Notes: generated by a model from the letters alone, not told the origin. Shown: positions 2,219 through 36,314, counted from the stretch's first letter. The stretch: DNA of 39,761 nt from an uncultured Methanosarcinales archaeon (GCA_964611285.1 CAZSZY010000005.1:1-39761); one strand, 5' to 3'. Made by a program: numbers and translations.

Positions 2219-2262
2219 TAACAGAAATCTTTTTATCTGTGGGCTTATTTGGAGAAGCTAAT

Positions 2263-3876
2263 ATGTTCATAGCAACTTCTTTATCTCATTATAAGCGCAT
2301 CCAAGTAAGAAAGAAGATTATTGCGCAAGCCGAACATAAAGAAGTTAGTGTTATGTATGGGTTAGAAAAGTTTGGAAAGCGACCAGATGTTCTCACGTAT
2401 GAAAATGATGTGCTAGAACTTGCTAAAAAAAAGGCAACTTCTTTTCATTGTTCTGAAGAATCATGGGAAAATCCTTTAGCAATTACTACGGGTTCTTCGC
2501 GTAAAGACTTGGATGCTCTTCGTATTGGATGGGATTTGATTTTGGATATTGATTGTCCTAATTGGAAACTTTCTCGAATAATTACTCATTTATTCATCAA
2601 AGCACTGCAAGATCATGGTATAGTTGCAGTTACTGCAAAGTTTTCAGGTAACAAAGGATTTCATATTGCAGTTCCTTTCGAATCATTTCCCTCACAAATT
2701 CCTTTTCAAGGAGAAATGAAATTAACAAAAGATTTATTTCCTGAAGGTCCACGAAAAATAGCGCTCTATTTACTTTCTTACATTACAAAAAATTATGTTC
2801 GTGTTTTTGATAAAGAACAAAAAGTTATTTTTGAAAATAAACACGAGTTTTTGTTTAGTGATTTTGATTCTATTTTGGAAAAAAACAAAAAGAATCTTGT
2901 TATTCGACAGTGTAGTGATTGTGAAAAATTATTTGAACAAAATACTCGCATAAAAACTTCTGTATTGTATCAGTGTGAGCAATGCGGCGCAGTTTCTAAA
3001 CCAAAAGGATCTCCAGAAATTATTCGTTGCGAAAAATGTTCTTATCCAGTGTCGCCACAACAAAATTCTCGTGCAAATGCTTGTCCTCATTGCGGTTCAA
3101 TAAAAAAACCTCGTCCAGAATTTAATTTGCCAGCAATAGTGGAAGTAGATACAGTGCTTATTGCGTCACGACATTTGTATCGTATGCCTTATTCTTTACA
3201 CGAAAAGTCGGAACTCGCTTCTGTACCTGTTCGATTGGATGATGTTCTTTCCTTTGAAAAGCAATTTGCAGCGCCAGAAAATATTTCTTTTGATGTTTCT
3301 TTTTTAGATAGGTTACAAGCAGTTCCTGGCGAGGGTGGACAATTATTAGTTCGTGCATTTGATGACACTTATGTTCCTGAAGAAGAAGAGCGGGCTAAGG
3401 CAAAGGTTATTGATGTACCTGCTGATGCTATTCCTGAAGACTTTTTCCCTCCTTGTATTAGAAATATTTTGAGTGGTTTAGAAGACGGTAAAAAAAGGGG
3501 ATTGTTTATTTTGGTTAATTTCCTTCGTGTATCTGGTTGGGGTGCTGAACAGATTAAAGAATTAGTGTATGCATGGAACGAGAAAAATCCAGAACCACTT
3601 AAAGAACAATATTTATTAGGTCAACTTAATCAAATAAAGAAGGGTCGAGCACCCATGCCACCTCCTAATTGTTCTAACAAAGACTATTATATTTCTTTAT
3701 TAGTATGTAAGCCAGATGACTTTTGTCCAAAAATTAGAAATCCAGCTATGTATGCTCGTAGAAGAGCAGAGTTAGGAAAGAAGACAATAAAGAAGAAGTC
3801 CAAGAAAGAATCTACTAAAAAAGTAGCAAAATCTTCAAAATCAACTGGAAGAACAGTACAAAAAGACAAAAAATGA
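2263..3876 (+). CDS. Archaeo-eukaryotic DNA primase, PriS catalytic domain fused to a PriL C-terminal (Fe-S) like domain
   Basis: AEP motifs LILDIDCP (DxD), FSGNKGFHIAV, VDTVLIASRHLYRMPYSLH. Two CxxC...CxxC zinc ribbons are inserted between them. The C-terminal FFPPCIRNIL...FLRVSGW...C-x12-C-x5-C resembles the PriL/p58C Fe-S domain. Start moved from the track GTG at 2239 to ATG 2263, which has GGAG 9 nt upstream. Confidence 0.8.
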   Translation: MFIATSLSHYKRIQVRKKIIAQAEHKEVSVMYGLEKFGKRPDVLTYENDVLELAKKKATSFHCSEESWENPLAITTGSSRKDLDALRIGWDLILDIDCPNWKLSRIITHLFIKALQDHGIVAVTAKFSGNKGFHIAVPFESFPSQIPFQGEMKLTKDLFPEGPRKIALYLLSYITKNYVRVFDKEQKVIFENKHEFLFSDFDSILEKNKKNLVIRQCSDCEKLFEQNTRIKTSVLYQCEQCGAVSKPKGSPEIIRCEKCSYPVSPQQNSRANACPHCGSIKKPRPEFNLPAIVEVDTVLIASRHLYRMPYSLHEKSELASVPVRLDDVLSFEKQFAAPENISFDVSFLDRLQAVPGEGGQLLVRAFDDTYVPEEEERAKAKVIDVPADAIPEDFFPPCIRNILSGLEDGKKRGLFILVNFLRVSGWGAEQIKELVYAWNEKNPEPLKEQYLLGQLNQIKKGRAPMPPPNCSNKDYYISLLVCKPDDFCPKIRNPAMYARRRAELGKKTIKKKSKKESTKKVAKSSKSTGRTVQKDKK

Positions 3877-7306: not shown

Positions 7307-7987
7307 ATGACTACATATGCATTCAAAAATGATGGCAATGATACAGCTAAGGCCTATGGCTCTAACCTAGACATATCTGTAAAAACATCAATTAACATTT
7401 GCAATAAAATTCGTGGTCTAGATGCACAAAAAGCAATAGTTCTCTTAGCAAGAGTACAAAATAAAGAAGAAGCAATTCCTTTCACTCGGTTCACAGATGG
7501 TGTAGGTCATCGAAGAGGAATGGCATCTGGTCGTTATCCTCTTAAAGCATCAGCCGCAATTAGTGATATTATTAAATCTGCAGTTGCAAATGCAGCAAAC
7601 AAAGGTCTTGCTGAAGAACTAGAAATTGTACATATATGCGCACACAAAGCAGGAAGTCCTATGCATCAAGGACGTCAACAACGACGAGCAATGAAAAGAA
7701 CTCATATTGAAGTTGTCCTAAAAGAATCAGAAGTAAAAGCAAAACCTGCAAAGAAAAAAGCAGAAGCTAAATCAAAATCAAAACAAGTAACGCAGAACAC
7801 TGAAAAACCGAAAGCAGATGTTGCGCCTGTTGTCCCTAAAGGATCAAAATCAGAAGAAAAAAAGTCAAAGGATAAACCAGAATCTGTTAAGAAAACTGAA
7901 GAAAAATCCGTGGCTGTTGAAAAATCACAGTCAGAAAAGCTGGACGCCGCAAAGCCGAAAGTAGTCGAGGGGTCTAAGGAACAATGA
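7307..7987 (+). CDS. rpl22: 50S ribosomal protein uL22 with about 85-aa K/E/S-rich C-terminal extension
   Basis: The L22 core is AKAYGSNLDISVKTSINICNKIRG...GHRRGMASGRYPLKA...HIEVVL. The low-complexity tail begins at about residue 139. Confidence 0.95.
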   Translation: MTTYAFKNDGNDTAKAYGSNLDISVKTSINICNKIRGLDAQKAIVLLARVQNKEEAIPFTRFTDGVGHRRGMASGRYPLKASAAISDIIKSAVANAANKGLAEELEIVHICAHKAGSPMHQGRQQRRAMKRTHIEVVLKESEVKAKPAKKKAEAKSKSKQVTQNTEKPKADVAPVVPKGSKSEEKKSKDKPESVKKTEEKSVAVEKSQSEKLDAAKPKVVEGSKEQ

Positions 7988-8853
7988 TTGAAAGAAAATT
8001 CGTTGCACAAAATTTCAAAGAATTCCAAATCAAGGAATACATCAAGAAAGAATTAAGTAGAGTTGGTTTAAGTAACGTTAAACTTCAAAGAACCAGTCTT
8101 GGTGAAAAAATCATTATTTCCGCATCACGCCCAGGTTTAGTAGTTGGTCGAGGAGGCGCAACCATACAACGTCTTACCAGAGAACTACGAGCAAAATTCA
8201 AATTAGAAAATCCTCAAATTGAAATTGAGGAAATTACAGACATTAGCATGGACTCAGGTGTTATCGCTGAAATGATTGTTAATCAATTAGAAAGATTCGG
8301 CACACAAAGGTTCAAAGGCATCGGTCACAAAACATTAGAATCAGTAATGAGAGGAGGCGCACTTGGTGTAGAGATCCTTATCTCAGGAAAAATACCTTCA
8401 TCACGAGCAAAAACTTGGCGATTTGTTGATGGTTACATGAAAAAGTGTGGCGACTTAGCAATCACAGGTGTTAGCACTGCAAAAGAATTTGCAAAATTAA
8501 AAACAGGAATTGTTGGTGTACAAGTAAGAATTATGCCAGGAACAACCGTTCTTCCTGATCAGATTACATTCCACGAAATTGAAGCTCTTTCAGGGCCAGT
8601 TATTGAAGAAGTAGACACTAAAGTAGAACCAGATGCAGAAGCAACCTCTAAAGAAACAACTGAAGAGAAACCAAAAAAAGAATCAAAGAAGACTGCAAAA
8701 ACAACAACTAAAACACGAAACAACACCACGCCTCGCTCTGGCGTAAACAAAGTTGCTGGTGCGCAGAAACAAGAAGTTTCTAGCGAAACAACGAAAAAGG
8801 TTGCAAAGACAGAAAAGCAGACCGCTGTAAAGCAGGAGGCTGATGAGAAGTGA
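7984..8853 (+). CDS. rps3: 30S ribosomal protein uS3 with K/T/E-rich C-terminal extension
   Basis: KH-domain core (ISASRPGLVVGRGGATIQRLTRELR, GHKTLESVMRGGALGVEILISGK). The tail carries NKVAGAQKQEVSS. The ATGA overlaps the rpl22 stop. Confidence 0.96.
   Translation: MIERKFVAQNFKEFQIKEYIKKELSRVGLSNVKLQRTSLGEKIIISASRPGLVVGRGGATIQRLTRELRAKFKLENPQIEIEEITDISMDSGVIAEMIVNQLERFGTQRFKGIGHKTLESVMRGGALGVEILISGKIPSSRAKTWRFVDGYMKKCGDLAITGVSTAKEFAKLKTGIVGVQVRIMPGTTVLPDQITFHEIEALSGPVIEEVDTKVEPDAEATSKETTEEKPKKESKKTAKTTTKTRNNTTPRSGVNKVAGAQKQEVSSETTKKVAKTEKQTAVKQEADEK
8752..8786 (+). repeat. Copy 1 of a conserved 35-nt module (gttgctggtgcgcagaaacaagaagtttctagcga) inside the rps3 tail
   Basis: 34/35 identical to 15606-15640. 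Contains CGC-AGAAAC-AAGAA-GTTTCT-A-GCG hairpin potential. Confidence 0.9.
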
Positions 8854-13075: not shown

Positions 13076-13702
13076 ATGGAACAACTCCTCACAATTAGAA
13101 AATTACTCAAAGGAAAAAAACCAACGTTTACTAGACATGACGCTCACAAAAAGAAAAGAGTAGGTATTGGCTGGCGAAGACCTAAGGGACGACAAAACAA
13201 AATGCGTTTACATCGAAAAGGTTACGCTAAAATTCGTTCAACAGGTTATGGATCGCCTGTTGCAGTCAAAGGATTATCCAAACAAGGTTTAACACAAAAC
13301 GTTGTTGCAAATTTAAAAGATTTTCAAACTCTTGACGCAAAAAAAGATGGAATTATTATTTCAGGAACTGTCGGCGCAAGAAAAAAAATAGTATTAATCG
13401 AATTTGCAGAAAAAAACAATTTCACAATTATTAATCTCGACGCAAAAGCTACGAAAAAGTCAATTGAGGACAAAGTAGAAGCAAAAAAAGCTCGAAGAAA
13501 AGTGCTCTTGAAACGAAAAGACACTAAAAAGAAAGCAAAAGAAAAAGCAGCAGCGAAAGATGATGCTGAAGCTAAAAAAGAAGAAGTAAAAACCAAAATG
13601 CAGGACACTGAAAAGCCAGTTTCAAAAGATGTGGAAACAGAAAAAGAAGCAAAGCTAGAAGAGAAAAAAGAACACGACAAAGTCCTCATAAGAAAAGAAT
13701 AG
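13076..13702 (+). CDS. rpl32e: 50S ribosomal protein eL32 with about 80-aa K/E/A-rich C-terminal extension
   Basis: PTFTRHDAHKKKRVGIGWRRPKGRQNKMRLHRKGY...GYGSP core, followed by a charged low-complexity tail. Confidence 0.94.
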   Translation: MEQLLTIRKLLKGKKPTFTRHDAHKKKRVGIGWRRPKGRQNKMRLHRKGYAKIRSTGYGSPVAVKGLSKQGLTQNVVANLKDFQTLDAKKDGIIISGTVGARKKIVLIEFAEKNNFTIINLDAKATKKSIEDKVEAKKARRKVLLKRKDTKKKAKEKAAAKDDAEAKKEEVKTKMQDTEKPVSKDVETEKEAKLEEKKEHDKVLIRKE

Positions 13703-14702: not shown

Positions 14703-15680
14703 ATGCGTGAAGAAATAAAAAAAGCATTTGACATTGGCTCTTGGCAACCTAAAACAGAATTAGGTAAAAAGGTAAAGTCAGGAGAAATAAAAGATATTGA
14801 TGAAATTTTAGGTAGTGGTAAGAAAATTTTAGAAACTGAAATTATTGATGCATTACTAAAAACAGAATCAGAACTTTTACTTATTGGTCAAGCTAAAGGT
14901 AAATTTGGTGGCGGTCAACGAAGAGTTTTCCGACAAACGCAGAAAAAAACTCGAGAAGGTAATAGACAATCATTTGCAACATTTGCTGTTGCAGGGGATG
15001 GTAATGGTCATGTTGGCGTGGGTTATGGTAAGTCTAAAGAAACTGTTCCAGCAAGAGAAAAATCTTTCCGACAAGCAAAACTTAATATGATGATGATAAG
15101 ACGAGGAACTGGTTCTTGGGAAGATCAAAGTGTAGAACCTCACTCAATTCCATTCGCAGTTGAAGGAAAATGTGGCTCTTACAAAATTATACTGATGCCT
15201 GCACCAAAAGGTAAAGGACTTATTTGTGACAAAGAAGTTGCAAAAATTCTCAAAGCAGCAGGAATTCAAAACATTTGGTCAAAAAGTTTTGGTCAAACAA
15301 AAAACAAAATCAATGTTATTAAAGCAACTATGCAAGCGCTAAGAAAACTTTCACAAGTAAGTGTTCAACCATCTCACAGAGATGTACTTGCAGTGACAGA
15401 AGGATCTTACGGCAAAGTTGAAAAACCACTTTTAATAGAAGAAATTGCAGCTGAAGCAAAAGCAGACGCAGAAGAAACAAAAGAAGAAGTAAAAACTGAA
15501 AAGCCAGTTACAGAAAAATCAGAAGTAACTAAGAAAGCCCCTGCAAAAAAAGCAGCTAAAAAAACAACTAAAAAAGAAGCAAAAACCGAAACACGAAGCA
15601 ACGATGTTGCTGGTGCGCAGAAACAAAAAGTTTCTAGCGAGCAGAACGCAGACAAACAGGAGGCGGCTAAAGATGAGTAA
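14703..15680 (+). CDS. rps5: 30S ribosomal protein uS5 with about 90-aa K/E/A/T-rich C-terminal extension
   Basis: FAVAGDGNGHVGVGYGKSKETVPAREKSFRQAK...GKCGSYKIILMPAPKGKGL core. The tail carries NDVAGAQKQKVSS. Confidence 0.95.
   Translation: MREEIKKAFDIGSWQPKTELGKKVKSGEIKDIDEILGSGKKILETEIIDALLKTESELLLIGQAKGKFGGGQRRVFRQTQKKTREGNRQSFATFAVAGDGNGHVGVGYGKSKETVPAREKSFRQAKLNMMMIRRGTGSWEDQSVEPHSIPFAVEGKCGSYKIILMPAPKGKGLICDKEVAKILKAAGIQNIWSKSFGQTKNKINVIKATMQALRKLSQVSVQPSHRDVLAVTEGSYGKVEKPLLIEEIAAEAKADAEETKEEVKTEKPVTEKSEVTKKAPAKKAAKKTTKKEAKTETRSNDVAGAQKQKVSSEQNADKQEAAKDE
15597..15640 (+). repeat. Copy 2 of the conserved module (agcaacgat-gttgctggtgcgcagaaacaaaaagtttctagcga) inside the rps5 tail
   Basis: Two consecutive potential hairpins: AGCAAC-GAT-GTTGCT and CGC-AGAAAC-AAAAA-GTTTCT-A-GCG. 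Near-identical to the copies in rps3 and rpl15. Confidence 0.9.
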
Positions 15681-16035
15681 AATAGCAGTAATCCTCGTTC
15701 GTGGTTTAGTTGGTATTAATAGAGATACTAAAGACACTCTAGCTTATCTTAACTTAAGAAAAAAACATGCTTGCGCAATTATTGAAGACACTCCAGTTAC
15801 TCGTGGAATGATTAAAAAAGCTCAAGGATACATTACCTTTGGTCCTGTAAGTGAAGAAGTACTCAAAGAACTTATCACAAAACGTGGCAAGACTAGTAAA
15901 GATAACAAAGTTTTCTTCCTAGCTCCACCTGTCGGCGGCTTTGAACGAAAAGGAATCAAACAATCATTTGTTGTTGGTGGCGTTTTAGGCGACCGAAAAG
16001 AAGCAATTAATGATTTACTCAAAAAAATGATGTAA
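15673..16035 (+). CDS. rpl30: 50S ribosomal protein uL30
   Basis: MSKIAVILVRGLVGINRDTKDTLAYLNLRKKH is L30-like. Start set to ATG 15673 (GGAGG 10 nt upstream, 8-nt overlap with the rps5 end) instead of the track start at 15604. Confidence 0.93.
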   Translation: MSKIAVILVRGLVGINRDTKDTLAYLNLRKKHACAIIEDTPVTRGMIKKAQGYITFGPVSEEVLKELITKRGKTSKDNKVFFLAPPVGGFERKGIKQSFVVGGVLGDRKEAINDLLKKMM

Positions 16036-16045
16036 GTGATGTATA

Positions 16046-16666
16046 ATGACTAATAACATTCGTAAAAAAAGCAGCAGACACCGAGGATCGTTCACTCATG
16101 GCCATGGCGAGAAGAAGAAAAGGCGAGGAGCAGGTCACCGAGGAGGCAGAGGTAATGCTGGTTCAGGAAAGCGTGGCGATGCAAAGAAACCATCCTACTG
16201 GAAAGACACAAAATATATGGGCAAGTTTGGATTTACCAATCCAACAACTAAAGATGTAAACACAATTAGCATCGCTCAGTTGAATTCATCAATTGAAAAT
16301 CTTGTTGCGGAAGGTTTTGCAACAAAAAATCAAAACAAATTCACAATAAATCTTACAGCAATGAATTGCGACAAACTTTTAGGTACTGGAAAACCAGTAG
16401 CCCAATATGTTATATCTGTTGCAGCTGCTACCGTTGGTGCTATTGAAAAAATCAAAGCAGCAGGTGGAGAAGTAATTATTGCTGTCAAAGAAGTTAAAGA
16501 AGTAAAACCAAAAGCAGAAGTAAAAAAACCTGCAAAATCAGAACCTAAAGTAGAGAAATCTGATAAAGCCGCAGAAAAACCTGTAGAGCAGAAAGCTAAA
16601 GCACAAAGCAACAAGGTTGCTGGTGCACAGAAACAAAAAGTTTCTAACAAGCCGTCTGCAGAGTAG
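16046..16666 (+). CDS. rpl15: 50S ribosomal protein uL15 with about 60-aa K/E/A-rich C-terminal extension
   Basis: SRHRGSFTHGHGEKKKRRGAGHRGGRGNAGSGKRG core. The tail carries NKVAGAQKQKVSN. Confidence 0.95.
   Translation: MTNNIRKKSSRHRGSFTHGHGEKKKRRGAGHRGGRGNAGSGKRGDAKKPSYWKDTKYMGKFGFTNPTTKDVNTISIAQLNSSIENLVAEGFATKNQNKFTINLTAMNCDKLLGTGKPVAQYVISVAAATVGAIEKIKAAGGEVIIAVKEVKEVKPKAEVKKPAKSEPKVEKSDKAAEKPVEQKAKAQSNKVAGAQKQKVSNKPSAE
16607..16650 (+). repeat. Copy 3 of the conserved module (agcaacaag-gttgctggtgcacagaaacaaaaagtttctaacaa) inside the rpl15 tail
   Basis: 32/35 identical to the rps5 copy over the core. Both inner hairpin stems (AGCAAC/GTTGCT and AGAAAC/GTTTCT) are retained. Confidence 0.9.
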
Positions 16667-33540: not shown

Positions 33541-34206
33541 ATGACATTTCTGGGTTTATTCAAGAAAAAAGAACAAGAAGTACTTCCAATTGATACTAAT
33601 TTGGAGCCCGTACCTACGTCAGTGCCAACACAACCCATGCCCGATCAAATTTCTTCTGACTCTGCTGCAGAACTACAAGCTGAAGATGAAGAAGCGCCTT
33701 TGTTAGGTGCACAATCAGAAACAAAAGAGGCACAACCAACTTCTTCAGAACCAATTATTCTTGGCGAAATGCCCATACCTGGTTTAGCTGCAACGTCTCC
33801 TTCGCCTGCATCTGCACCACTAGAAAAATCAATTTCAACTCCTTCAATTAATGAAGCCAAACCAGCACAACAAGAGGTCCCAGAAACACAAGTATTGTCG
33901 CAGCATAAAGAAATAAAAGAAATGGGAACTTTGCGTAAAGAAACAGTTCCTGATATTGTAGCTTATCCTGGTGCGCCAGGCTCAGGGAAAATATTTGAAG
34001 GAATATATGTTAGAAAAGAACGATATATAGAACTCTTAGAATCGCTGAGAGATAATAGAGTATCATTGCAAGAACAATTATCCAATGAAGAACGACTTTT
34101 GCAGTTGCAAGAGAAAATTGTTCATAACTTAGAGAAAGAAGAATCTTTACTCAATGAATTATTTGAAAAAGTTATGACAATGGAATTATTAACAAAAAGG
34201 TGTTAA
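33541..34206 (+). CDS. Hypothetical protein: P/S/A/E-rich disordered N-terminal part plus C-terminal coiled-coil module (paralogue 1 of 3)
   Basis: 221 aa. The C-terminal IYVRKERYIELLESLRDNRVSLQEQL... is similar to the start of the next two ORFs. Confidence 0.55.
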   Translation: MTFLGLFKKKEQEVLPIDTNLEPVPTSVPTQPMPDQISSDSAAELQAEDEEAPLLGAQSETKEAQPTSSEPIILGEMPIPGLAATSPSPASAPLEKSISTPSINEAKPAQQEVPETQVLSQHKEIKEMGTLRKETVPDIVAYPGAPGSGKIFEGIYVRKERYIELLESLRDNRVSLQEQLSNEERLLQLQEKIVHNLEKEESLLNELFEKVMTMELLTKRC

Positions 34207-34208
34207 CA

Positions 34209-34436
34209 ATGGGTGAAAAATCGCCAGTATTTATCAAAATTGACGAGTATAAAGAAGTATTAGATACTATTGACAATCTTAAAAAAGAATTAGGTGACGT
34301 TCGTTTAACGCTTGAAGAAATAAAAAAACTTCGAACAGAAGAAGAACAAACTCTAGATAATTGGGAGAAAAATGTTCATGAGGCAGAAGCAAAGCTTCTT
34401 GAGTTAGACAAATCACTATTTGAACCGGATGCATAA
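34209..34436 (+). CDS. Hypothetical small coiled-coil protein (paralogue 2 of 3)
   Basis: VFIKIDEYKEVLDTIDNLKKELGDVRLTLEEIKKLRTEEEQTLDNWEKNV... Start at ATG 34209, with AGGTG 8 nt upstream and 2 nt after the previous stop. Confidence 0.55.
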   Translation: MGEKSPVFIKIDEYKEVLDTIDNLKKELGDVRLTLEEIKKLRTEEEQTLDNWEKNVHEAEAKLLELDKSLFEPDA

Positions 34437-34852: not shown

Positions 34853-34936
34853 GCGGGGATGCCGGAGTGGTCAAACGGGGCAGACTCAAAATCTGTTGGC
34901 TTAGTGCCTACGAGGGTTCGAACCCCTTTCCCCGCA
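34853..34936 (+). tRNA. tRNA-Leu (anticodon CAA), class II with long variable arm, no intron, CCA not encoded
   Basis: Acceptor GCGGGGA/TCCCCGC with discriminator A. Anticodon stem GCAGA/TCTGT and loop CT-CAA-AA. Variable arm GGC-TTAG-TGCC. T arm GAGGG-TTCGAAC-CCCTT. TATA-like ttttataaa lies about 40 nt upstream. Confidence 0.9.
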
Positions 34937-34970: not shown

Positions 34971-36314
34971 ATGTTTCGCGCTTTGCGCTCAAGCATACGG
35001 AAATATAAATTGACATTCACAATTATTCCTCTTGGTGGCGCACAAGAAATTGGTCGCAATTGCTTCGCTATAGATATTAATAGAAAAATAGTCATTCTTG
35101 ATATGGGTTTTCATTTAGAACGATTTATTGAGTTAACAGAAACTGACTTTCCTAATAAAAAACATTCATTAAGACAATTTATTTCATCAGGTGCTCTTCC
35201 AAATATCAGACTTCTTCGTAAAAGAAAAAAAGATGTTGTTGGTATTGTTTGTTCTCACGCACATTTAGACCATGTCGCGGGCATTCCTTTTCTAGCTAAA
35301 CGTTTTAATTGCGACGTGCATGCAACACCTTTTACAGGACAATTAATTCGCTCTTTAGCCGAAGATAGAGGAGTTAAAGTGAGTATCAAACAACACGCTC
35401 CAAAAAGCACTTTTATGATAGGCGAGATTAAAATTGAATTTATTCCTATTGCGCACTCTACACCTCAAACAGTTGCAGTTGCAATTCATACATCTAATGG
35501 CGTTGTTCTTTATGCTAATGATTTTAAAAATGATCAGTCTCCTCCTTTTGAAGAAGCAACAGATATAAAACGACTTGCAGAATTAAAAGGTAAAGTAAAA
35601 GTGTTGTTGCTTGATTCTCTTTATGCTCCTCGAAATGAATTTTGTCCTTCAGAGCGTATAGCACAAAAAAAACTTAATGATTTAGTTCCAAAATTAAGTG
35701 AGTATCGTGCAATTATTGCATCTACTTTTTCGTCTCATATTTATCGTTTAAGAGAACTTTGTGATGTGGCCGACACGCTTCAAAGAAAAGTTGTTTTTGT
35801 TGGACGCTCGCTAGCAAGATATATTGCTGCAGCAAAAGAAGCTGATGTTGTTGACCTGACGCAGCGAGGAAGTGTTCTTAAATTTGCAAACCAAGCAAGA
35901 AACTTTTTTGCAAAGTTGCAGCATCCAGAAGAATATTTTTTTATTGTGACAGGTCATCAAGGAGAACCTCAAGCAGTATTAAATAGAATGGCAGATGGAT
36001 TGTTTTCATTTACTGCAAAAGATGTAGTTATTTTTTCTTGTCAAATTATTCCTGTACCTATCTCTCTTCAAAACAGAGCAAAATTAGAAGATAAATTGCA
36101 CGCAAAAAAAGTTAATTTATTCACTGATGTTCATGTTTCAGGTCATGCATTTGCAAAAGATCATCAAGCACTACTTTCTTTACTTGAGCCAGAATTTGTT
36201 CTTCCTATTCATGGCGAGCCAAAGATGATACGCGCGATGGAAAAACTCATAAAAAATCATTCTCAAGCAAAACCAGTCATTCTTTCTGTTGGCGAGCGAA
36301 AAGCGTTCTCGTAG
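34971..36314 (+). CDS. rnj: Archaeal RNase J (beta-CASP metallo-beta-lactamase ribonuclease)
   Basis: IIPLGGAQEIGRNCFAI, HAHLDHVAG, and the later IAHS and HVSGHA motifs. 447 aa, without the KH domains of aCPSF1. Confidence 0.82.
   Translation: MFRALRSSIRKYKLTFTIIPLGGAQEIGRNCFAIDINRKIVILDMGFHLERFIELTETDFPNKKHSLRQFISSGALPNIRLLRKRKKDVVGIVCSHAHLDHVAGIPFLAKRFNCDVHATPFTGQLIRSLAEDRGVKVSIKQHAPKSTFMIGEIKIEFIPIAHSTPQTVAVAIHTSNGVVLYANDFKNDQSPPFEEATDIKRLAELKGKVKVLLLDSLYAPRNEFCPSERIAQKKLNDLVPKLSEYRAIIASTFSSHIYRLRELCDVADTLQRKVVFVGRSLARYIAAAKEADVVDLTQRGSVLKFANQARNFFAKLQHPEEYFFIVTGHQGEPQAVLNRMADGLFSFTAKDVVIFSCQIIPVPISLQNRAKLEDKLHAKKVNLFTDVHVSGHAFAKDHQALLSLLEPEFVLPIHGEPKMIRAMEKLIKNHSQAKPVILSVGERKAFS

What the first reader, a model, noticed from the sequence alone, without database searches (positions are those of the whole stretch)
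15597..15640. Near-identical 35-44 nt double-hairpin module (peptide VAGAQKQ[KE]VS) in the C-terminal tails of three unrelated ribosomal proteins
**What the sequence shows**
- gttgctggtgc[g/a]cagaaaca[a/g]gaagtttcta[g/a]c[g/a]a occurs at 8752-8786 (rps3), 15606-15640 (rps5) and 16616-16650 (rpl15).
- By hand alignment, identity to the rps5 copy is 34/35 (rps3) and 32/35 (rpl15), including synonymous positions.
- The surrounding K/E/A/T-rich tail sequence is not alignable at nucleotide level.
- The module can fold as AGCAAC-NNN-GTTGCT followed by (CGC)AGAAAC-AAAAA-GTTTCT(A-GCG).
- Each copy sits 16-70 nt before a cistron boundary (uS3|uL29, uS5|uL30, uL15|secY).

**Why it matters**
Conservation of a short island inside otherwise divergent low-complexity tails argues for selection on this element itself.

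**Possible functions**
- An RNA element in the polycistronic mRNA (processing, translational coupling or protein binding).
- A short linear peptide motif displayed three times on the ribosome surface.
- Ongoing gene conversion between the tails.
Basis: seen in the sequence. Interest (0 to 1): 0.72.

Follow-up and report, generated by a model that had tools for sequence, protein, structure and literature searches.

The report
Hairpin repeats inside ribosomal-protein tails
Three ribosomal-protein genes of a tiny DPANN archaeon (Woesearchaeota) carry near-identical copies of a short element made of 24-base hairpin units written in-frame into their disordered tails; relatives keep the base-pairing but not the peptide, so it is a nucleic-acid element, not a protein motif.

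Summary
The 35-mer occurs three times (uS3, uS5, uL15 tails) against 0 expected. Nine of 10 shared-residue codons are identical, against 3.1 expected from codon usage. The unit is larger than reported: a 48-nt short form (uS5, uL15) and a 74-nt long form (uS3).

It is built from tandem 24-nt (8-codon) hairpin units with one architecture: RCAC-RR-6 bp-NNN-6 bp-R-GUGY. Copies also occur in the eS19, eL31 and uS5 tails of other Woesearchaeota. There the peptide differs (RTESSS, VSKET, VPKTKSLS) but the stems are kept by compensatory changes: 6 of 10 pairs covary, 98.9% of cells pair, and 0 of 500 shuffles match.

Differences between copies are mostly non-synonymous. One copy lies just after a stop codon. 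The closest relatives lack the element altogether. All copies are sense-strand, in one codon phase, and only in ribosomal-protein genes.

Best reading: a structure-selected hairpin repeat, RNA-compatible on the sense strand, copied among tail-coding 3' ends by segmental gene conversion, with the peptide as a by-product. Whether it is a cis-acting mRNA element or RPE/REP-like selfish DNA is unresolved. There is no Rfam match and no literature precedent.

The parts
8713..8786 (+). Long-form module in the uS3 tail. Unit 1 is ACAC(8713-8716)-GA-AACAAC(8719-8724), then a 27-nt loop, then GTTGCT(8752-8757)-G-GTGC(8759-8762). The loop holds an inner hairpin, ACGCC(8728-8732)-TCGCTCT-GGCGT(8740-8744). 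Unit 2 is CGC-AGAAAC-AAGAA-GTTTCT-A-GCG (8762-8785). It encodes TRNNTTPRSGVNKVAGAQKQEVSS.
   Evidence: CM hit of 18.7 bits. It is near-identical to the long forms in the L015/L016 eS19 and eL31 tails.
15591..15640 (+). Short-form module in the uS5 tail (the finding's own site). Unit 1 is ACAC-GA-AGCAAC-GAT-GTTGCT-G-GTGC (15591-15616). Unit 2 is CGC-AGAAAC-AAAAA-GTTTCT-A-GCG (15616-15639). It encodes TRSNDVAGAQKQKVSS.
   Evidence: MFE -18.5 kcal/mol, z -3.1; CM 36.2 bits on the sense strand against 10.1 bits antisense.
16601..16650 (+). Short-form module in the uL15 tail. Unit 1 is GCAC-AA-AGCAAC-AAG-GTTGCT-G-GTGC (16601-16626). Unit 2 is AGAAAC-AAAAA-GTTTCT (16629-16645), with the outer helix lost. 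It encodes AQSNKVAGAQKQKVSN.
   Evidence: MFE -17.4 kcal/mol, z -3.5; CM 40.6 bits on the sense strand against 11.3 bits antisense.
8582..8853 (+). K/E/A/T-rich C-terminal tail of uS3, the host context. It lies beyond the Pfam domains, which end at residue 183.
   Evidence: Tails are also present in the orthologues L011-L013, but there they lack the module.
15409..15680 (+). K/E/A/T-rich C-terminal tail of uS5, the host context.
   Evidence: 118 of 120 orthologues lack the motif, yet many keep a conserved ...VKSDE end, which shows that the tails are translated.
16485..16666 (+). K/E/A/P-rich C-terminal tail of uL15, the host context.

Best explanation
The module is a nucleic-acid element, and the peptide VAGAQKQ[KE]VS is only its translation.

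Anatomy (shown). It is built from tandem 24-nt (8-codon) units. Each unit folds as a hairpin with a fixed architecture: an outer 3-4 bp helix (RCAC/GUGY or CGC/GCG), a 0-2 nt 5' internal loop, a 6-7 bp inner helix, a 3-5 nt A-rich loop, and a 1-nt purine bulge on the 3' side. Units sit in one codon phase, on the sense strand, in the DNA coding for the disordered C-terminal tails of ribosomal proteins in some Woesearchaeota (uS3, uS5 and uL15 here; eS19, eL31 and uS5 elsewhere).

What is conserved (shown). The base-pairing is kept by compensatory changes, and the peptide is not. G.U pairs make the fold work only on the sense strand. Copies within a genome are near-identical. Close relatives lack them.

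Spread (inferred). Units are copied and homogenised among the compositionally similar tail-coding 3' ends by segmental gene conversion or duplication. Small in-frame indels (the 24-nt long/short difference) and changes in unit number accompany this.

Function (inferred). The hairpin is kept by selection on structure. It most likely acts in the polycistronic r-protein mRNAs as a stem-loop recognised by a protein or nuclease, affecting stability, processing or co-regulation near the 3' ends of cistrons. The disordered tails are simply the place where such an element can be carried in a genome with almost no non-coding DNA.
For: Repeat beyond chance:
- 3 matches against 0 expected.
- 9 of 10 codons identical against 3.1 expected, P about 4e-5.

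Peptide not under selection:
- pN is at least pS in most pairs; for example, the L015 eS19 and eL31 copies differ by 3 non-synonymous and 0 synonymous changes.
- No protein family shares the peptide, and no archaeal hit appeared in the scan of GTDB species representatives.
- In L016 the eL31 ORF stops at a TAA immediately 5' of an intact module.

Structure conserved while sequence changes:
- Inner-helix (P2) variants are AGCAAC/GTTGCT, AGAACT/AGTTCT, ATCAGC/GCTGAT, AGCAGC/GCTGCT and AGUAAC/GUUGCU.
- Second-unit stems are AGAAAC/GTTTCT, GTCTC/GAGAC, CAAAGAC/GTCTTTG and CAAAAG/CTTTTG.
- On 9 units, 98.9% of cells pair, 6 of 10 pairs change on both sides, and 0 of 500 shuffles reach this. Register slides fall to 17-46% paired.
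- RNAalifold predicts the same fold independently.
- Folding z-scores are -3.1 to -4.9 for the short forms.

Strand and location:
- The G.U pairs in L017 copy 1, L021 unit 2 and the L015/L016 inner hairpin would be A.C mismatches on the other strand.
- The CM scores 36-41 bits on the sense strand against 10-11 bits antisense.
- Across about 190 kb, both strands, every good CM hit lies in an r-protein tail.

Spread by copying:
- Relatives with 74-86% uS5 identity lack the element in all three genes.
- The eS19/eL31 homology tract is about 100-120 nt with ragged ends.
- Neighbouring copies are the most alike (uS5 with uL15; eS19 with eL31).
Against: - No function has been demonstrated. Distribution is patchy: L023 lacks the element at 72% eL31 identity, L022 at 67% looks like a decayed relic, yet it is intact at 49-53%. 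That fits a dispensable or selfish element better than an essential regulator.
- Some substitutions break terminal pairs (uS3 A.C; L015 eL31 C.U; the uL15 outer helix is lost).
- Translating ribosomes would unwind hairpins that lie inside ORFs.
- Quasi-palindrome template-switch repair can mimic compensatory change without selection.
- The covariation set is small (9 units from 5 lineages). One unit (L011 u1) was found with a structure-based descriptor.
- The rest of the source genome is unseen, so intergenic or antisense copies cannot be excluded.
Confidence: 0.55

Rival explanations
1. Selfish palindromic DNA, the archaeal counterpart of Rickettsia palindromic elements or REP/BIME. On this view the hairpin is kept because a DNA-hairpin-recognising enzyme or a recombination process propagates it. 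Disordered tails are merely the permissive landing sites. There is no benefit to the host.
For: - The element is multi-copy and near-identical within a genome.
- It is patchy among close relatives and occurs in different host genes in different genomes.
- Tandem unit number varies from 2 to 4.
- L022 holds what looks like a decayed relic.
- One copy was tolerated after loss of translation.
- In-frame palindromic repeats in unrelated genes are documented for RPEs (PMC10969869) and PARCELs (PMC2996958).
Against: - There are no intergenic, antisense or non-r-protein copies in about 190 kb.
- No transposase is encoded in the window.
- Homology tracts have ragged ends rather than defined termini or target-site duplications.
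- The G.U pairs and the conserved asymmetric internal loop favour a sense-strand RNA.
- The IMG/VR viral contigs hold no match.
Confidence: 0.28
2. Neutral concerted evolution. On this view, low-complexity tails recombine with each other, the shared island is simply the most recent conversion tract, and the hairpins are accidental or are generated by quasi-palindrome template switching.
For: - Physically close copies are the most similar, and flanks share composition.
- Tails evolve fast through indels and tandem duplication.
Against: - The same asymmetric architecture recurs in five lineages with four to five different inner-stem sequences and a conserved outer helix.
- The modules have 50-54% G+C in a 35% G+C genome, and they use the rare codons GCG, CAG and AGC exactly where pairing needs them.
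- Template switching would tend to erase the conserved 2-nt/1-nt asymmetry.
Confidence: 0.1
3. A short linear peptide motif ([ND][KD]VAGAQKQ[KE]VS) displayed on the ribosome surface, which recruits a partner.
For: - All copies are read in the same frame, and the peptide is hydrophilic.
- The tails are really translated, since their extreme C-termini are conserved in orthologues.
Against: - pN is at least pS.
- Synonymous sites are frozen rather than free.
- Homologous units encode unrelated peptides (RTESSS, ISKADS, VSKET, VPKTKSLS).
- 118 of 120 uS5 orthologues lack the motif.
- The representative-protein search returned only one unrelated chance hit at E <= 0.001.
- One copy is untranslated.
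Confidence: 0.04

Closest known systems
Rickettsia palindromic elements (RPEs; Ogata et al. 2000/2002, as summarised in PMC10969869)
   Same: Both are multi-copy, hairpin-forming repeats found in-frame inside unrelated protein-coding genes. Both add a tolerated peptide segment and are patchy between related genomes.
   Different: RPEs are about 100-150 bp, bacterial, and scattered through many metabolic genes as well as non-coding DNA. The element here is built from 24-nt units (48-74 nt in total), is archaeal, is confined so far to ribosomal-protein tails on the sense strand, and appears to spread by conversion of ragged tracts.
REP/BIME elements with RAYT transposases (PMC2817692, PMC3116915)
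   Same: Both are imperfect palindromes of about 25-35 nt with a conserved short terminal motif. In both, stems covary between lineages, units form tandem arrays within operons, and known roles are as mRNA 3' stabilisers.
   Different: REPs are extragenic, usually alternate in orientation, number in the hundreds per genome, and are bacterial with a cognate RAYT. Here the units are intragenic, all in direct orientation, and no RAYT has been seen.
[quoted passage not shown]
   Same: Both are tandem intragenic repeats whose coding DNA has dyad symmetry. Both have a punctate distribution and are shuffled within genomes.
   Different: PARCEL units are 25 residues long, amphipathic and conserved as a protein HMM, and they occur in membrane or surface ORFs. 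Here the units are 8 residues long, the peptide is not conserved, and the hosts are ribosomal proteins.
Autoregulatory r-protein mRNA structures (Rfam ribosomal-protein leaders; established knowledge of S8/spc, L4/S10 and L1 control)
   Same: Both are covariation-supported RNA structures inside r-protein operons.
   Different: The known elements are single-copy, lie in 5' UTRs or intercistronic regions, and mimic one rRNA site for one protein. This element is repeated across at least two operon clusters, sits inside ORFs near their 3' ends, and has no Rfam match.

Membership tests
RPE-like in-frame coding palindromic repeats | Near-identical repeat present in-frame in several unrelated protein-coding genes | tested here: met
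   uS3, uS5 and uL15 in the window; eS19, eL31 and uS5 in other loci. All copies are in the same phase.
RPE-like in-frame coding palindromic repeats | Palindromic, hairpin-forming sequence | tested here: met
RPE-like in-frame coding palindromic repeats | Element of about 100-150 bp belonging to the RPE sequence families of Rickettsia, also found in non-coding DNA | tested here: not met
   Units are 24 nt and modules 48-74 nt, in an archaeal host. The only non-coding copy is the post-stop one in L016.
REP/BIME-RAYT | Extragenic location | tested here: not met
   All copies are inside ORFs or derived from an ORF tail.
REP/BIME-RAYT | Arrays with alternating orientation | tested here: not met
   All units are in direct, sense orientation.
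REP/BIME-RAYT | Cognate RAYT (Y1 transposase) in the genome and a high copy number | not testable with these tools
   Only a contig of about 40 kb is available, and it encodes no transposase. The source genome is not among the GTDB species representatives.
Known cis-regulatory or other RNA families (Rfam 15) | Match to a curated covariance model | tested here: not met
   No hit at the sites at gathering score. Only sub-threshold noise appears at E <= 10.
Structured RNA element (generic) | Base pairs supported by compensatory changes across homologues | tested here: met
   6 of 10 pairs change on both sides, 98.9% of cells pair, 0 of 500 shuffles reach this, and the slid registers collapse. RNAalifold agrees.
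Short linear peptide motif | Peptide conserved while codons vary, and present in orthologues | tested here: not met
PARCEL | 25-residue amphipathic repeat recognisable as a protein profile | tested here: not met
   Units are 8 residues long and hydrophilic, and the peptide is not conserved. No Pfam domain is reported beyond the ribosomal core domains of uS3, uS5 and uL15.

The most novel reading that the evidence does not exclude
The hairpin unit is a shared cis-acting RNA signal carried by several ribosomal-protein operons of some Woesearchaeota. It is embedded in coding tails because these genomes have almost no UTRs. A trans-acting protein or nuclease reads it to co-regulate r-protein mRNA stability or processing. 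This would be an archaeal, 3'-proximal, coding-embedded analogue of regulon-wide signals such as the eukaryotic 5'TOP motif. A corollary is that r-protein tails in this lineage grow partly by accretion of such units.
Probability: 0.2. Interest if true: 0.8.

Novelty: new variant of a known kind. Interest (0 to 1): 0.64.

Why it matters
Coordinate control of ribosomal-protein synthesis in Archaea is poorly understood. DPANN genomes are so compact that regulatory RNA has little room outside ORFs.

A covariation-supported hairpin family restricted to r-protein mRNAs would be a concrete, testable candidate for such control. If it is instead selfish, it would be the first archaeal case of palindromic DNA colonising coding regions. 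It would also offer a mechanism for how the unusual low-complexity tails of Woesearchaeota ribosomal proteins are built and reshuffled.

The finding carries a practical warning as well. A recurrent "peptide motif" in disordered tails can be the shadow of a nucleic-acid structure.

Tried and rejected
- **Genome scan for the peptide.** A degenerate DNA scan for VAGAQKQ[KE]V in the GTDB species genomes returned only 10 bacterial chance hits and no archaea. The source genome is not a representative.
- **Motif-profile protein search.** A profile search with the motif (A3) failed. The third returned "no candidate shares three 5-residue words", even though the window's own proteins contain the motif. 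That result is therefore uninformative, and the word index seems blind to these tails.
- **Representative-protein search.** phmmer of the 30-aa uS3 module against 1.84 billion representatives gave one unrelated repetitive protein, P0121.
- **Viral contigs.** Neither the peptide pattern nor the hairpin pattern found anything.
- **Structure-only descriptor scan.** It proved too permissive: 33 hits against 4-20 in shuffles. I used it only as a lead, and it pointed to L011 unit 1. A first version of the script timed out.
- **Other recurrent eL31 tail peptides.** KGTARTPEGDVK and D[VI]RKAPQPKxQKQG..HEE were tested as possible translated hairpins. Their DNA has no such fold (L019, L020).
- **Alternative RNA or DNA identities, considered and dismissed from the anatomy.**
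  - K-turn, bulge-helix-bulge intron, H/ACA or C/D guide RNA: the internal loop is 2x1, and there are no boxes and no 3-nt bulges.
  - -1 frameshift stimulator: no correctly spaced slippery site.
  - CRISPR array: no spacers.
  - Palindromic transcription-factor operator: two different inner stems occur within one genome.
- **Translational coupling.** A role at stop/start overlaps does not generalise, because the eL31 copies lie at operon ends.

Full report
**1. The observation**

None of 100 dinucleotide-preserving shuffles gave a match.

Pfam identifies the host ORFs as uS3 (7984-8853), uS5 (14703-15680) and uL15 (16046-16666). They are followed by uL29, uL30 and SecY. The window is a 35% G+C archaeal S10/spc-type ribosomal-protein cluster. 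The closest database proteins are labelled Woesearchaeota, Nanoarchaeota or Nanobdellota, which are DPANN archaea.

All three copies lie in K/E/A/T-rich C-terminal tails beyond the Pfam domains. The flanking tail DNA does not align.

Among the 10 codons that encode the same residue in all three copies, 9 are identical. The window's own codon usage predicts 3.1 (P about 4e-5). Peptide conservation plus codon bias therefore cannot explain the identity.

**2. True extent and anatomy**

Aligning the copies shows that the module begins about 15 nt further upstream, at ACAC/GCAC. It comes in two forms:
- a short form of about 48-50 nt, in uS5 at 15591-15640 and in uL15 at 16601-16650;
- a long form of 74 nt, in uS3 at 8713-8786. 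It carries 24 extra nucleotides (8 codons, TTPRSGVN) that contain their own small hairpin, ACGCC-N7-GGCGT.

The short forms fold as two adjacent hairpins, with MFE of -17 to -18.5 kcal/mol and z-scores of -3.1 to -3.5.
- Hairpin 1 is RCAC - RR - 6 bp - NNN - 6 bp - R - GUGY.
- Hairpin 2 has the same plan: CGC - AGAAAC - AAAAA - GUUUCU - A - GCG.

In a relative (L011) four such units follow one another at an exact 24-nt spacing: 10823, 10847, 10871 and 10895. The basic building block is therefore a 24-nt, 8-codon hairpin unit. In every copy I examined the unit starts at codon position 1; this is computed from the coordinates.

**3. Relatives: the peptide is not what is conserved**

Orthologous tails exist throughout the clade, but the motif does not.
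- Of 120 uS5 orthologues only one other (P0080) has anything similar.
- Two relatives with complete operons, at 77% and 74% uS5 identity (L012, L013), lack the motif in uS3, uS5 and uL15. The covariance model gives no convincing hit in them, only two matches at E 7.7.
- A degenerate scan for the peptide in 185,579 species genomes found no archaeal instance.
- A full HMMER scan of 1.84 billion representative proteins found only one unrelated chance hit.

A peptide-pattern scan of JGI metagenomes recovered two contigs.
- L014 is 1980/1980 identical to the window.
- L015 is a 1.3-kb contig with two further long-form copies. One is in the tail of eS19 and one in the tail of eL31; the genes were identified through L016-L018.

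The two L015 copies differ by three substitutions, all non-synonymous: K>E, Q>P and Q>P. Across all near-identical copies pN is equal to or larger than pS.

In L016, a near-identical strain, the eL31 ORF ends at a TAA placed immediately 5' of an intact module. The old C-terminal coding sequence is still in frame behind it. The module therefore persists untranslated there.

**4. Relatives: the base-pairing is what is conserved**

More distant Woesearchaeota carry recognisable units whose peptides are unrelated but whose stems pair perfectly.

- L011, uS5 tail:
  - GCAC-AA-ATCAGC-AAA-GCTGAT-A-GTGC
  - GCAC-GA-AGAACT-GAA-AGTTCT-A-GTGC
  - CAGAAAC-AAGAA-GTTTCTG
  - GAAGC-AAA-GCTTC
- L017, eL31 tail, two copies: ACAC-AA-AG[U/C]AAC-AAA-GTTGCT-A-GTGT, followed by GTCTC-AAAA-GAGAC.
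- L018, eL31 tail: ACAC-AG-AGCAAC-AAA-GTTGCT-A-GTGT, followed by GC-CAAAGAC-TAA-GTCTTTG-A-GC.
- L021, eL31 tail, combined MFE -30.4 kcal/mol:
  - GCAC-AG-AGCAGC-GAA-GCTGCT-A-GTGC
  - GCGC-TC-AGAACT-GAA-AGTTCT-G-GCGT
  - GC-CAAAAG-ATAAA-CTTTTG-A-GC

On nine aligned units, 98.9% of cells form standard pairs, and 6 of the 10 pairs show changes on both sides. No shuffle out of 500 reaches these values. Sliding the 3' partners by 1-3 columns drops pairing to 17-46%. RNAalifold predicts the same structure independently.

One caveat applies: L011 unit 1 was found with a structure descriptor. The other units were found by sequence or peptide similarity, and the signal was already present in the seven-unit set, which still included that unit.

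**5. Strand, specificity and distribution**

- G.U pairs occur in L017 copy 1, in L021 unit 2 and in the inner hairpin of the L015/L016 long forms (U.G, where the window has C-G). On the opposite strand these would be A.C mismatches.
- The internal loop is asymmetric, so the covariance model scores 36-41 bits on the sense strand against 10-11 bits on the antisense strand.
- Over about 190 kb searched on both strands (window and L011-L023), every convincing hit lies in a ribosomal-protein tail, or, in L016, just beyond its premature stop. None is intergenic, antisense or in another kind of gene.
- The modules have 50-54% G+C in a 35% G+C genome. They use the rare codons GCG, CAG and AGC exactly where pairing requires them.
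- Rfam 15 has no matching family. I found nothing in the literature about such an element or about Woesearchaeota r-protein tails.

**6. How copies spread**

- Distribution is patchy. The element is absent from the closest uS5 relatives. For eL31 it is absent at 72% identity (L023), looks like a decayed relic at 67% (L022) and is intact at 49-53% (L017, L018, L021).
- Within a genome, copies are nearly identical, and physically close copies are the most alike: uS5 with uL15, 1 kb apart; eS19 with eL31, 0.8 kb apart.
- In L015/L016 the homology between the eS19 and eL31 tails extends about 20-25 nt beyond the module on each side and has ragged ends.
- There are no terminal inverted repeats or target-site duplications, and no transposase is encoded in the window.

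I infer segmental gene conversion or duplication among compositionally similar tails, not cut-and-paste transposition. This step is inference.

**7. Interpretation**

What is shown: the conserved entity is a hairpin of defined geometry; the peptide is a by-product; the element is multi-copy, labile and restricted, as far as sampled, to the sense strand of r-protein genes.

What is inferred: selection acts on the structure. The most economical place for that selection is the polycistronic mRNA, with a stem-loop read by a protein or nuclease that affects stability, processing or co-regulation.

The main rival is a selfish palindromic repeat in the manner of Rickettsia RPEs or REP/BIMEs (PMC10969869, PMC2817692). 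It explains the patchiness and turnover well. It does not explain the absence of intergenic or antisense copies, or the sense-strand G.U pairs.

Neutral concerted evolution, with hairpins made by quasi-palindrome template switching, is possible. However, it should erase the conserved 2-nt/1-nt asymmetry rather than keep it.

The peptide-motif reading is essentially refuted.

A role in translational coupling at stop/start overlaps does not generalise, because the eL31 copies sit at the ends of operons.

**8. Comparison with what is known**

- In behaviour the element resembles RPEs (in-frame palindromic repeats in unrelated genes), REP/BIME arrays (short covarying palindromes within operons) and PARCELs (dyad-symmetric intragenic tandem repeats; PMC2996958).
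- It fails defining features of each. These are size and host for RPEs; extragenic location, alternating orientation and a RAYT for REPs; and a conserved 25-residue amphipathic protein repeat for PARCELs.
- It is also unlike the known r-protein autoregulatory RNAs, which are single-copy, lie in leaders or intercistronic regions, and mimic an rRNA site.

I therefore class it as a new variant of a known kind: coding-embedded palindromic repeats. It has one unusual property, its restriction to ribosomal-protein mRNAs in an archaeon. That restriction keeps a more novel regulatory reading open, which I put at about 0.2.

**9. Limits**

- Only about 40 kb of the source genome is available.
- The covariation set is small: nine units from five lineages.
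- One protein search was uninformative because the word index did not even retrieve the query's own proteins.
- No expression or structure-probing data exist.

Noticed in passing
L016:2290-2440 (compare L015:830-985): In a near-identical strain the eL31 ORF ends at a TAA placed immediately 5' of the hairpin module. The module and the old C-terminus (...AKAEPLKEEAKKE*) remain in frame behind it. This is either a very recent truncation or a stop codon followed by a stable hairpin that might allow read-through.
   Followed up: partly
uS5 orthologues P0007-P0067; window 15663-15680: Behind highly variable low-complexity tails, most Woesearchaeota uS5 proteins end in a conserved ...(E)VK[SAQ][DN]E* terminus (the window has AAKDE*). 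Many eL31 tails likewise end in ...K[AKT]E*. This suggests that the extreme C-termini are functional and that the tails are translated to the end.
   Followed up: no
eL31 orthologues P0128, P0138, P0140 and P0172 (L019:2304-2369); P0159, P0165, P0167-P0169 and P0182 (L020:6436-6513): Two other recurrent tail peptides appear in eL31: KGTARTPEGDVK, and a C-terminal D[VI][RK]KAPQPKxQKQG..HEE*. Their DNA shows no hairpin unit, so these may be genuine peptide-level motifs.
   Followed up: partly
window 15604-16035: The uL30 reading frame is open upstream to an ATG that sits in the loop and 3' arm of hairpin 1 of the uS5 copy (GAUGUUGCU). This would give a 143-aa N-terminally extended uL30. The other copies have no ATG there, so it is probably accidental.
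   Followed up: no
window 2239-3876: A single 545-aa ORF matches both the small (PriS) and the large (PriL) primase-subunit families, plus a zinc ribbon. It appears to be a fused archaeal primase.
   Followed up: no
window 34385-34399: A perfect AGAAGC-AAA-GCTTCT hairpin lies near the 3' end of a small non-ribosomal ORF (34200-34436). It is a weak covariance-model hit (14.3 bits). It resembles L011 unit 4 (GAAGC-AAA-GCTTC) but lacks the outer helix, so it may be chance.
   Followed up: partly
L022:10346-10441: The eL31 tail (TGVNNNVAKKETSKV; ...GGCGTAAATAATAACGTAGCAAAAAAAGAAACTTCAAAAGTTAATGCGCC) looks like a decayed relic of the long-form module, with its stems broken.
   Followed up: partly
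L018:8994-9770: The eS19 tail contains about three tandem repeats of roughly 25-30 residues (...KEVAPVKKEVKEVVETKTEAKEVVKQD.TP...). This shows that these r-protein tails also grow by ordinary tandem duplication.
   Followed up: no
window 34853-34936: A tRNA gene spans 84 nt for a 71-position model (56.5 bits), so it may carry an intron. It lies just upstream of an RNase J-like beta-CASP gene (34971-36314).
   Followed up: no
window 7307-7987 and 13076-13702: uL22 (226 aa) and eL32 (208 aa) also have long K/E-rich tails but carry no hairpin unit. Tails and units are therefore separable features.
   Followed up: yes
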